NCBI GenBank assembly: GCA_963759765.1
Contig: CAVXAL010000003.1
Span: 1,011,080 to 1,075,079, forward strand
DNA length: 64,000 nt
Origin: Candidatus Aminicenantes bacterium
GTDB taxonomy: Bacteria; Acidobacteriota; Aminicenantia; UBA2199
Direction: 5' to 3'
The notes beneath the pieces are model-generated. The model had not been told where the DNA came from. It was given only the letters and a program-made list of their open reading frames with translations, and did not search any database. Shown here one piece after another: positions 828 to 23,937 of the stretch. How positions within the stretch are numbered: the stretch's first letter is position 1; the number at the start of each line of letters is the position of its first letter. Both the position numbers and the translations under genes were made by a program.

Positions 828-856
828 TTGACAAGCTCAAGCCAGCGCCTTATACT
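828..856 (+). promoter_or_regulatory. Sigma70-type promoter for the riboswitch/CDF transcript
   Basis: TTGACA (828-833), 17-nt spacer, TATACT (851-856); predicted TSS about 863. Confidence 0.85.
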
Positions 857-862
857 GGGAAC

Positions 863-923
863 GGAAGAACAGGTTTCACGCCGGGCTCAACTCTTGGGCA
901 GCAGCGTCGGCTGCGGGACTTCC
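863..923 (+). ncRNA. NiCo (czcD-motif) metal-sensing riboswitch aptamer, compact variant
   Basis: P1 GGAAG/CTTCC encloses AACAGG..GCCGGGC..GGCAGCAG..CTGCGGGA, the junction motifs of NiCo riboswitches. P2 is GGT/GCC, P3 is GCTCAA/TTGGGC and P4 is GCAGC/GCTGC. It lies upstream of a CDF transporter, the known gene context. Confidence 0.85.
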
Positions 924-1006
924 CCGATTCAGGCCATGAGGATCGTCACAGTGACCGATTGTTTTATCTGTTTTTCCTGGCCCCACCCCTCCCTTTTCTC
1001 AACTTC

Positions 1007-1906
1007 ATGACACTTAAACCGGAAAGCGAGAAGATACAGGCGGCTTTCACCTCGGTGGTGGCCGCGGTCGCTCTCACACTTTTCAAAGTCATCATTGGCC
1101 TGCTGACCAACAGCCTGGGTATTCTCTCGGAAGCGGCCCATTCCGGTTTTGACCTGGTGGCCGCCATAATCACGCTTTTTGCCGTGCGCCTCTCCGACAA
1201 GCCCGCCGACCCCCAGCACCTCTACGGTCATGGCAAGGTGGAGAACCTTTCCGCCCTGGTCGAGACCCTGCTGCTGCTGGGCACCTGCGTCTGGATCGTC
1301 TCCGAGGCCGTCGACCGGCTCTTTTTCAAAAGCGTCGTGGTGCGGGTCTCTGTCTGGTCTTTTCTGGTCATGTCGGTTTCCATCGTCGTGGATGTCAACC
1401 GGTCGCGGATGCTCTACCGCATCGCACGCAAATACAACAGCCAGGCGCTGGAGGCGGATGCCCTGCACTTTCAGACCGATATCTGGAGCTCGGCGGTGGT
1501 CCTGCTCGGCCTGATCGGCGTCTTTGTCGGCACTCGCTTCAGCGGGCTGAATTTTCTGGAAAAATTGGATTCCGTGGCCGCGTTGGGCGTGGCCCTGATT
1601 GTCATCGTCATCAGCGTGCAACTGGGCAAACGGACGATCCACGGCCTGCTGGATTCGGCACCCAAAGGCTTGAGCCAGAAAATCAAAGCCGAGGTGGAGA
1701 GATTGCCGCAGGTCCGCGACTGCCACAAAATCCGGGTGCGCACCTCCGGCCCCCGGCTCTTTGTCGATGTGCACGTGCTGCTGGACGGCAACCAGTCTCT
1801 GGACGAGGCGCACCAGGTCACTGAACAGATTGAAAACGTCATCCGCAATCTCGCCCCCGGAGCCGACGTGACGGTACACCCGGAACCCGACCCGATCGGC
1901 AGCTGA
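1007..1906 (+). CDS. Cation diffusion facilitator (CDF; CzcD/FieF/MamM-like) divalent metal exporter
   Basis: Six TM-like segments with SEAAHSGFD, HLYGHGKVE and ADALHFQTD, plus a C-terminal dimerisation domain (DVHV...TVHPEP). The start is trimmed from 818 to ATG 1007 because the promoter lies at 828-856. Confidence 0.93.
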   Translation: MTLKPESEKIQAAFTSVVAAVALTLFKVIIGLLTNSLGILSEAAHSGFDLVAAIITLFAVRLSDKPADPQHLYGHGKVENLSALVETLLLLGTCVWIVSEAVDRLFFKSVVVRVSVWSFLVMSVSIVVDVNRSRMLYRIARKYNSQALEADALHFQTDIWSSAVVLLGLIGVFVGTRFSGLNFLEKLDSVAALGVALIVIVISVQLGKRTIHGLLDSAPKGLSQKIKAEVERLPQVRDCHKIRVRTSGPRLFVDVHVLLDGNQSLDEAHQVTEQIENVIRNLAPGADVTVHPEPDPIGS

Positions 1907-23864: not shown

Positions 23865-23937
23865 TGACCCCACCAGGAATCGAACCTGGAACCTATTGAT
23901 TAAGAGTCAATTGCTCTGCCAATTGAGCTATGGGGCC
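23865..23937 (-). tRNA. tRNA-Lys (anticodon CTT), CCA not encoded
   Basis: GGCCCCATAGCTCAATTGGCAGAGCAATTGACTCTTAATCAATAGGTTCCAGGTTCGATTCCTGGTGGGGTCA forms a full cloverleaf with GTTCGA T-loop and loop CTCTTAA. Confidence 0.96.

What the first reader, a model, noticed from the sequence alone, without database searches (positions are those of the whole stretch)
863..923. Very compact NiCo/czcD-type riboswitch upstream of a CDF exporter
Seen: a 61-nt four-way junction starting at the predicted TSS (promoter 828-856). It reads P1 GGAAG/CTTCC, AACAG, P2 GGT-ttcac-GCC, GG, P3 GCTCAA-ctc-TTGGGC, A, P4 GCAGC-gtcg-GCTGC, GGGA. Known: NiCo riboswitches carry AGCAGGC..GCCGGGC..GGCAACAG..CUGUGGGA between the P1 strands, sit before czcD-type exporters, and bind Ni/Co (Fe(II) has also been proposed). 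The usual ACAG/CUGU of P4 is GCAG/CUGC here, a compensatory change. P2 is cut to a 3-bp stem. From memory, described examples are longer and mainly from Firmicutes. Inference: a minimal aptamer in a lineage where it may be unreported, possibly with altered metal selectivity or cooperativity.
Basis: partly seen in the sequence, partly recalled or inferred. Interest (0 to 1): 0.82.

Follow-up and report, generated by a model that had tools for sequence, protein, structure and literature searches.

The report
Compact NiCo metal riboswitch before exporter
The 61-base RNA element in front of this metal-export gene is a real but unusually short copy of the known NiCo/czcD (iron/cobalt/nickel-sensing) riboswitch that the standard database cut-off misses. 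It is a fairly ordinary find, and how it switches the gene here is still unclear.

Summary
Window 863-923(+) folds into the four-way junction as described. It starts at the predicted transcription start of a near-consensus promoter (828-856) and lies 84 nt before a CDF exporter gene (1007-1906).

Rfam's NiCo model (RF02683) aligns to it end to end with every junction nucleotide conserved. The score is only 27.1 bits (cut-off 37) because P2 and P4 are short. E is 8e-4 for the whole genome.

It is not a lineage trait. It is the only copy in 339 genomes of its class (Aminicenantia), and 61 CDF orthologue leaders lack it. The same minimal form does recur:
- P1 GGAAG/CUUCC directly behind a TTGACA promoter, with a 3-bp P2
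- before a P-type ATPase in another Acidobacteriota genome
- before CDF genes of Spirochaetia, with compensatory changes

All copies score below Rfam's cut-off.

No evidence points to changed metal selectivity. The only thing lost is the outer part of P2, which holds a metal site reported to have no regulatory role.

The expression platform is not the canonical terminator and remains unresolved. Candidate parts are a 12-bp anti-aptamer helix and a short leader ORF whose stop overlaps the SD-less CDF start.

Verdict: new member of a known class, modest interest.

The parts
828..856 (+). Sigma-70-type promoter: -35 TTGACA (828-833), 17-nt spacer, -10 TATACT (851-856). Predicted TSS about 862-864, the first base of P1.
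   Evidence: 11 of 12 matches; 1 site found against 0.2 expected. Best match in 20 kb. Relatives have cTTGACA 35-40 nt before P1 in the same way.
863..923 (+). Compact NiCo/czcD-class aptamer, a 61-nt four-way junction.
   Evidence: Rfam RF02683 full-length match, 27.1 bits, genome-wide E 8e-4. The MFE fold is the four-way junction. Covariation in the compact set.
863..867 (+). P1 5' strand GGAAG. It pairs with 919-923 (CUUCC). C870 pairs with G917.
   Evidence: P1 is almost invariant in all compact relatives.
872..882 (+). Minimal P2: G872-C882, G873-C881, U874.G880, loop UUCAC.
   Evidence: The third pair is U.G here and in L210, and C-G in L152, L226 and L227.
883..900 (+). J2/3 GG (883-884), P3 (885-890/894-899, loop CUC) and A900. 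G883-885 correspond to the metal-ligand guanines G40-42 of structure 4RUM.
   Evidence: alignment. Nucleotide roles are from bioRxiv 10.1101/2025.08.02.668262.
901..918 (+). P4 (901-905/910-914, loop GUCG) and J4/1 GGGA (915-918). G915-917 correspond to ligand guanines G81-83.
   Evidence: The second P4 pair C-G becomes U-A in L210.
919..923 (+). P1 3' strand CUUCC. It resembles an anti-Shine-Dalgarno sequence and is the switching strand in relatives.
   Evidence: In L152 and L227, 77-91% of SD pairing in the free ensemble is with this strand, and enforcing P1 frees the SD.
936..1010 (+). Candidate leader ORF: AUG 936 (24 codons) or GUG 951 (19 codons, preceded by SD-like GAGGA 938-942). The peptide contains CFIC. 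Its stop TGA 1008-1010 overlaps the CDF ATG (ATGA).
   Evidence: Sequence and translation. This is inference only, with no homologue to test conservation.
966..977 (+). Pyrimidine tract AUCUGUUUUUCC. It is complementary over 12 contiguous bp to 863-874 (P1 5' strand, J1/2 and P2 5' strand), making it a candidate anti-aptamer strand.
   Evidence: full-leader MFE -43.3 against -35.3 with the aptamer enforced. (pair probability above 0.99). (21 of 2000 shuffles reach 12 bp). Total duplex energy is not unusual.
941..975 (+). Weak hairpin (941-948/952-960, -4.5 kcal/mol) followed by the U-rich run UUGUUUUAUCUGUUUUU. A poor candidate for an intrinsic terminator.
   Evidence: Not called by the terminator scan.
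1007..1906 (+). CDF (CzcD-type) metal exporter gene, 299 aa, with HxxxD motifs in TM2 and TM5. No Shine-Dalgarno sequence upstream.
   Evidence: Pfam. ORF. Many other genes in the window have strong SDs.

Best explanation
Window 863-923 is a genuine, naturally shortened member of the NiCo/czcD riboswitch class. The mRNA starts at or just before G863, so P1 sits at the very 5' end.

By homology with the crystallised aptamer, divalent Fe, Co or Ni ions bind the guanine triplets of J2/3 (883-885) and J4/1 (915-917). This locks the four-way junction and holds P1 and the 3-bp P2 shut. Without metal, the 5' strand (863-874) is free and probably pairs with the pyrimidine tract 966-977.

Metal binding is expected to raise expression of the CDF exporter. 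The output is most likely translational, through the short leader ORF that ends on the CDF start codon. The canonical terminator route is less likely.

What is shown:
- homology of the aptamer
- intact core nucleotides
- promoter and gene context
- recurrence with covariation in other lineages

What is inferred:
- metal binding
- ON polarity
- every step of the expression platform
For: 1. The full-length RF02683 match has all junction nucleotides (GAaCAGG, CCGGGC, GCAGCAG, CUGCGGGAC). Genome-wide E is 8e-4, the next best hit in the genome scores 17 bits, and the best hit in 40 relatives scores 22 bits.
2. It has the right strand and position, immediately after the best promoter in 20 kb and before a CDF gene.
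3. The same minimal architecture recurs independently:
   - L152/L220 (Spirochaetia-like CDF only 37% identical)
   - L226 and L227
   - G472/L210 in another Acidobacteriota class, before a P-type ATPase
4. In that set 98% of cells pair, against 25-49% with slid partners. Five pairs change on both sides, and 0 of 500 shuffles reach that.
5. The aptamer is the MFE during transcription up to about nt 953.
6. The outer P2 metal site is dispensable (PMC9389577, PMC11672702).
7. The class is enriched in anaerobes, and Aminicenantes fit that (PMC11672702).
8. In relatives, enforcing P1 frees the SD: L152 0.19 to 0.38, L226 0.17 to 0.53, L227 0.27 to 0.79.
Against: - The score is below Rfam's gathering cut-off.
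- The fold energy of the aptamer is not better than shuffles.
- P2 is only 3 bp with a G.U pair, and a P2-disrupting mutant of the model aptamer is inactive (PMC9389577).
- The element is a singleton in its class, and 61 CDF orthologue leaders lack it.
- No canonical terminator overlaps the switching strand, and the local hairpins are weak.
- Equilibrium folding gives no ON logic here. The leader-ORF SD-like site is less accessible with the aptamer enforced (0.33 to 0.07). The CDF AUG does not change (0.60). The aptamer state is 8.4 kcal/mol less stable than the free ensemble.
- The TSS was not mapped.
Confidence: 0.72

Rival explanations
1. Relic or constitutive leader. The element descends from a NiCo riboswitch, acquired together with or next to the exporter gene, but no longer regulates. 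The shortened P2 and the rearranged downstream region leave a structured 5' UTR without a working switch.
For: - Singleton in 339 class genomes.
- No canonical platform and weak hairpins.
- Folding gives no ON logic.
- In the Spirochaetia series the element visibly erodes: P2 is lost in L224, J4/1 becomes AGGC or AGGA in L226 and L224, and the element is absent in L222, L228 and L232.
Against: - Every conserved core nucleotide is intact here.
- The 3-bp P2 form is kept in at least four lineages with compensatory changes.
- Promoter spacing to P1 is conserved.
- The 12-bp complement to the 5' strand is unlikely by chance (21 of 2000 shuffles).
Confidence: 0.18
2. Functional sensor with retuned properties. 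The minimal P2 and P4 change affinity, cooperativity or metal preference relative to the characterised Firmicutes aptamers.
For: P2 stability matters in the model aptamer (M3 mutant, PMC9389577). Stoichiometry differs between natural members, n = 2 to 5 (PMC9389577). Shorter helices could weaken coaxial stacking (bioRxiv 10.1101/2025.08.02.668262).
Against: All ligand-contacting positions are unchanged. The lost part carries only the non-regulatory site 4. No comparative signal for a different ligand: the regulated genes are the same kind of exporters.
Confidence: 0.07
3. Chance look-alike. G+C-rich hairpins happen to resemble the NiCo junction.
For: Sub-threshold score. Fold energy z = -0.82. 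G+C-rich noise hits of 24-27 bits occur with my own model.
Against: - Genome-wide E 8e-4, combined with the exact expected position and strand before a CDF.
- Noise hits lack the GGG/GGGA core.
- A simple core pattern occurs in the class less often than its reversed control (17 against about 75 matches), and only this copy has proper P3 and P4.
- Homologous copies with the same promoter layout exist elsewhere.
Confidence: 0.03

Closest known systems
NiCo (czcD motif) riboswitch, Rfam RF02683. Crystal structure 4RUM (Erysipelotrichaceae bacterium). Characterised members come from Clostridium, Listeria and C. cellulolyticum.
   Same: - Four-way junction P1-P4
- Identical junction nucleotides, including the two guanine triplets and the two G.A-forming adenines
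- Located in the 5' UTR of a metal exporter (CDF here, P-type ATPase in L210)
- Expected ON response to Fe2+/Co2+/Ni2+
   Different: - 61 nt instead of about 90.
- P2 is 3 bp plus a 5-nt loop, against about 10 bp with an internal loop.
- P4 is 5 bp plus a 4-nt loop.
- Scores 27 bits, below the 37-bit cut-off.
- P1 starts at the transcription start.
- No terminator built on the switching strand.
- Host is an uncultured Aminicenantes bacterium rather than a Firmicute.
Compact NiCo-like leaders found here: L152/L220, L226 and L227 (Spirochaetia-type CDF genes) and G472/L210 (Acidobacteriota, P-type ATPase).
   Same: - P1 GGAAG/CUUCC
- 3-bp P2
- Short P4
- cTTGACA promoter 35-40 nt before P1
- All below Rfam's cut-off (24.7-30 bits)
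   Different: In the relatives an SD follows P1 by 3-48 nt. In L152 and L227 the SD pairs with the switching strand, a translational ON design. L226's SD is also freed when P1 is enforced, but it pairs mostly elsewhere. The window instead has an 84-nt spacer, a leader ORF and an SD-less CDF start.
Riboswitch or leader-peptide systems that act through a short upstream ORF coupled to the main gene (general class; recalled from knowledge of Mg2+ leaders such as mgtA/mgtL, not tested here).
   Same: A short ORF lies between the sensor and the gene. Its stop overlaps the main start (ATGA). A C-rich, G-poor tract runs 976-1006.
   Different: No evidence that the leader ORF is translated or conserved. 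Folding does not predict metal-dependent exposure of its start.

Membership tests
NiCo/czcD riboswitch (RF02683) | Four-way junction with helices P1-P4 in the family's order | tested here: met
   Full-length CM alignment 1-96. The MFE is the same structure.
NiCo/czcD riboswitch (RF02683) | Conserved junction nucleotides, including the ligand guanines (GGG of J2/3, GGG of J4/1) and the adenines that form the G.A pairs | tested here: met
   GAaCAGG, CCGGGC, GCAGCAG and CUGCGGGAC all match the consensus. Roles are from bioRxiv 10.1101/2025.08.02.668262.
NiCo/czcD riboswitch (RF02683) | Score at or above Rfam's gathering threshold (an operational cut-off, not a biological feature) | tested here: not met
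   27.1 bits against 37. The loss comes from deletions in P2 (23 model positions reduced to 5 nt) and P4 (12 reduced to 2). True members with 5-6-bp P2 score 41-56 bits.
NiCo/czcD riboswitch (RF02683) | Lies in the 5' leader of a heavy-metal exporter gene, on the same strand | tested here: met
   CDF gene 84 nt downstream. Relatives lie before CDF or P-type ATPase genes.
NiCo/czcD riboswitch (RF02683) | Helices supported by covariation among homologues | tested here: met
   Compact set A4: 98% of cells paired, 5 pairs with changes on both sides, 0 of 500 shuffles reach this. Caveat: only 8 sequences, and the alignment was fitted to the model.
NiCo/czcD riboswitch (RF02683) | Extended P2 helix, whose pairing is needed for function in the model aptamer | tested here: inconclusive
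   Only the three junction-proximal pairs remain. The P2 metal site 4 is dispensable, but a P2 mismatch mutant is inactive (PMC9389577).
NiCo/czcD riboswitch (RF02683) | Expression platform: an intrinsic terminator whose 5' arm is the switching strand (3' P4, J4/1 and 3' P1) | tested here: not met
   No complement of 909-923 lies downstream. The only hairpin before the U-run has -4.5 kcal/mol and does not overlap the aptamer.
NiCo/czcD riboswitch (RF02683) | Cooperative binding of Fe2+/Co2+/Ni2+ at about micromolar Kd with a conformational change | not testable with these tools
   Needs in-line probing, ITC or a reporter.
NiCo/czcD riboswitch (RF02683) | Transcript includes the whole P1 (TSS at or before 863-864) | not testable with these tools
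Support is indirect: the -10 box ends 6 nt before G863, and relatives have the same spacing.

The most novel reading that the evidence does not exclude
The GGAAG/CUUCC, 3-bp-P2 elements form a distinct, horizontally spreading 'mini-NiCo' subclass. It is fused to its own promoter, so P1 is the mRNA's 5' end, and its P1 3' strand doubles as an anti-SD.

In this Aminicenantes genome it has been rewired. The 5' strand alternates between P1/P2 and a 12-bp helix with a Phe/Cys-coding pyrimidine tract inside a CxxC leader ORF. The stop of that ORF overlaps the SD-less CDF start. Metal sensing and ribosome traffic on the leader ORF would then jointly set exporter translation.
Probability: 0.15. Interest if true: 0.6.

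Novelty: new member of a known kind. Interest (0 to 1): 0.3.

Why it matters
- It extends the NiCo/czcD class to uncultured anaerobic lineages (Aminicenantia, another Acidobacteriota class, Spirochaetia) that the Rfam threshold does not reach. Current distribution maps therefore under-count the class.
- A natural 61-nt aptamer with only three P2 pairs is a ready-made test of how much of P2 the sensor needs. It is also a smaller scaffold for Fe(II)/Co/Ni RNA biosensors.
- In anoxic, iron-rich habitats it fits the proposal that the class mainly guards against Fe(II) excess.
- None of this changes the picture of the class. It is an incremental addition.

Tried and rejected
- **Default Rfam scan of the window.** Only a tRNA was found.
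- **RF02683 in 40 relatives.** Weak hits of 22 bits or less lack the GGGA core, so they are noise. The stricter filters of that run also lost the window's own hit.
- **NiCo core in CDF orthologue leaders.** None in 58 loci from other phyla or in 3 same-family loci. Contexts are not syntenic.
- **Core pattern across the class.** Chance level.
- **MAFFT alignment of variable-length NiCo elements.** Misaligned and discarded.
- **Canonical terminator model.** Rejected, because the hairpins are weak and there is no overlap with the switching strand.
- **Total aptamer-downstream duplex energy as evidence for a designed alternative fold.** Not significant (489 of 1000 shuffles). Only the contiguous 12-bp helix is modestly unusual.
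- **Simple SD-release model for the window.** Not supported by the accessibility calculation.
- **Same anti-5'-strand tract in L210.** Not significant (588 of 2000).
- **Exact-protein look-up of the window's CDF.** Not on record.
- **Founding paper (PMC4667775) and supplements of PMC5473149.** Not held.
- **Centring a genome search on the Spirochaetia MAG.** Record not held.

Full report
**1. Observation**

RNAfold gives exactly this four-way junction as the minimum-free-energy structure (-21.2 kcal/mol). The energy is not better than that of shuffled sequences (z = -0.82), so thermodynamics alone is no evidence.

The promoter at 828-856 (TTGACA, 17 nt, TATACT) is the only sigma-70-like site in 600-1200 and the best in the first 20 kb. 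Its -10 box ends 6 nt before G863.

The downstream ORF starts at ATG 1007 and is a CDF exporter with Cation_efflux and ZT_dimer domains.

**2. The covariance-model test**

- With Rfam's gathering thresholds the window yields only a tRNA.
- In E-value mode RF02683 (NiCo) aligns to 855-923 over the whole model (positions 1-96) at 27.1 bits. The gathering score is 37, and E = 3.4e-4.
- Searched against the whole 2.85-Mb assembly it is the top hit at E = 8e-4. The next hits are 17 bits or lower.
- The alignment shows every conserved junction nucleotide (GAaCAGG, CCGGGC, GCAGCAG, CUGCGGGAC).
- The lost score comes from deletions in P2 (23 model positions replaced by 5 nt) and P4 (12 replaced by 2).
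- According to the simulation paper on structure 4RUM (bioRxiv 10.1101/2025.08.02.668262), the metal ligands are the guanine triplets of J2/3 and J4/1, together with two G.A pairs. The corresponding window positions (G883-885, G915-917, A871, A900) are all present.

**3. Lineage and distribution**

- Named homologues of the neighbouring M3 peptidase are Candidatus Aminicenantes/Aminicenantia. This agrees with earlier notes on this genome.
- The element is not a trait of that lineage.
- A core pattern search of all 339 genomes of the class gave 17 matches, against about 75 for the reversed control. Only the window's copy has proper P3 and P4.
- RF02683 hits in 40 relatives are 22 bits or lower and lack the GGGA core.
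- The CDF gene itself is patchy, present in 4 of 72 family genomes.
- Neither the three same-family orthologues nor 58 orthologues at 50-67% identity from Chloroflexota, Acidobacteriota, Verrucomicrobiota, Planctomycetota and other phyla carry the motif upstream.

**4. Relatives of the compact form**

One metagenome pattern scan for short-P4 NiCo cores returned more than 120 stretches.
- Many are true NiCo elements that pass Rfam at 41-56 bits. Their P2 helices are as short as 5-6 bp.
- The window has the shortest core of the sample: 50 nt from CAGG to GGGAC.
- The next shortest, L152 (52 nt, 25.6 bits), is a near twin. It has P1 GGAAG/CUUCC, P2 GGC-ccacc-GCC, a TTGACA promoter just upstream and a CDF gene just downstream. 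That CDF is only 37% identical to the window's, and its named homologues are Spirochaetia.

A covariance model built from the two found one more copy in 401 sampled genomes of the phylum. This is G472/L210 (50.1 bits, E = 6e-10).
- It has the same P1, a GGU/GCC P2, and P4 GUAG/CUAC.
- It lies before a P-type ATPase.
- It is the only copy in its class of 13 genomes.

Orthologues of the L152 CDF show a graded series:
- identical element: L220, L221
- 3-bp P2 with a triloop: L226, L227
- P2 lost altogether: L224, L225
- divergent: L230
- no element: L222, L223, L228, L232

All of these score 24.7-30 bits or give no hit with Rfam.

On the structure-guided alignment of eight sequences, 98% of cells pair, against 25-49% with slid partners. 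Five pairs change on both sides, and 0 of 500 shuffles reach that. The alignment was fitted to the model, so this leans in its favour.

All members have cTTGACA 35-40 nt before the first G of P1. This is comparative support for a transcription start at P1.

**5. Does the short P2 matter?**

Xu and Cotruvo (PMC9389577) showed two things. Removing the P2 ligand of the fourth crystallographic cobalt site leaves Kd and stoichiometry unchanged, and the review PMC11672702 repeats that site 4 has no regulatory role. On the other hand, a mutant with two P2 mismatches is inactive.

The compact form keeps exactly the three junction-proximal pairs, and the third pair switches between U.G and C-G among members. 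I take this as compatible with function but untested. I found nothing that points to a different metal preference.

**6. Expression platform**

In characterised members the switching strand (3' P4, J4/1 and 3' P1) forms the 5' arm of a terminator. Here no downstream complement of 909-923 exists.

The only hairpins are weak: 925-930/940-945 at -4.8 kcal/mol and 941-948/952-960 at -4.5 kcal/mol. The second is followed by UUGUUUUAUCUGUUUUU.

The full leader prefers a 12-bp helix between 863-874 and 966-977 that excludes P1 and P2.
- MFE is -43.3 kcal/mol, against -35.3 with the aptamer enforced.
- The ensemble difference is 8.4 kcal/mol, and the pair probabilities exceed 0.99.
- The aptamer is the MFE while the first 90 nt or so are transcribed. 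That would allow kinetic control.
- The helix is modestly unusual as a contiguous run (21 of 2000 shuffles), but total duplex energy is not (489 of 1000).

The CDF start has no Shine-Dalgarno sequence, although many genes in the window have strong ones.

A short ORF ends in TGA overlapping the CDF ATG. It starts at AUG 936, or at GUG 951 behind GAGGA 938-942, and its peptide is ...TDCFICFSW....

In relatives the logic is clearer. In L152 and L227 the SD pairs mainly with the CUUCC switching strand. In L152, L226 and L227 the SD becomes more accessible when P1 is enforced.

For the window the same calculation gives no ON logic. GAGGA goes from 0.33 to 0.07 unpaired, and the CDF AUG stays at 0.60. 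The output mechanism here is therefore unresolved. My best guess is translational control through the leader ORF, with the 966-977 tract as the anti-aptamer strand. A weak terminator, or Rho acting on the C-rich tract 976-1006, are alternatives.

**7. Verdict**

The aptamer is a real NiCo/czcD homologue at the compact end of the family. It was probably acquired sporadically, and it belongs to a small set of minimal-P2 elements that Rfam's threshold misses.

Earlier notes from this scan describe similar sub-threshold compact NiCo elements in other genomes. I did not test those, but they agree that trimming of peripheral helices is common in this class.

This is a new member of a known kind. Its interest is modest: a natural minimal aptamer, plus an unusual and unresolved expression platform.

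Noticed in passing
window 936-1010 (+): A short ORF whose TGA overlaps the CDF ATG (ATGA at 1007-1010). Starting at AUG 936 it encodes MRIVTVTDCFICFSWPHPSLFSTS. Alternatively it starts at GUG 951, 8 nt after GAGGA. It contains a CxxC motif. The CDF start itself has no SD.
   Followed up: partly
window 976-1006 (+): A C-rich, G-poor tract (CCUGGCCCCACCCCUCCCUUUUCUCAACUUC) directly before the CDF start. It could serve as a Rho loading site, or could pair with the aptamer's G triplets.
   Followed up: no
L224/L225 626-689 (Spirochaetia MAG GCA_035516575.1): A NiCo-like leader with P2 deleted entirely (GAACA-A-GGGC) and J4/1 AGGAC. It directly abuts AGGAGG and the CDF start. This is a natural three-way-junction derivative.
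   Followed up: partly
L226 618-685: A compact NiCo-like element with J4/1 changed from GGGAC to AGGCC, so two core positions including a ligand guanine are altered. It is still before a CDF with an SD 7 nt after P1.
   Followed up: no
L105, L112, L135, L155 (metagenome contigs): A group of NiCo-like elements with a long P2 (about 43 nt) but only a 2-bp P1, right after a TATACT box. They score 26-28 bits, also below Rfam's cut-off.
   Followed up: no
L152 1-148 and L220 1-98: An M-box (Mg2+) riboswitch precedes an Nramp plus MgtE_N/CBS gene pair, immediately upstream of the compact NiCo-CDF-DUF6485 unit. Two different metal riboswitches therefore lie in one 5-kb stretch.
   Followed up: partly
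L210 about 1395-1425 and 1630-1660 (minus strand): Repeated GGGCAGAC...GUCUGCCC hairpins (REP- or terminator-like) flank the compact NiCo. One lies between the aptamer and the P-type ATPase gene, inside a 128-codon ORF that looks spurious.
   Followed up: no
L093 13890-13991 (-): A Guanidine-I riboswitch match at 46.5 bits, below its 63-bit gathering score.
   Followed up: no
window 23865-23937 (-): A tRNA gene (73.3 bits). It is the only Rfam family that reaches its gathering score in the window.
   Followed up: no
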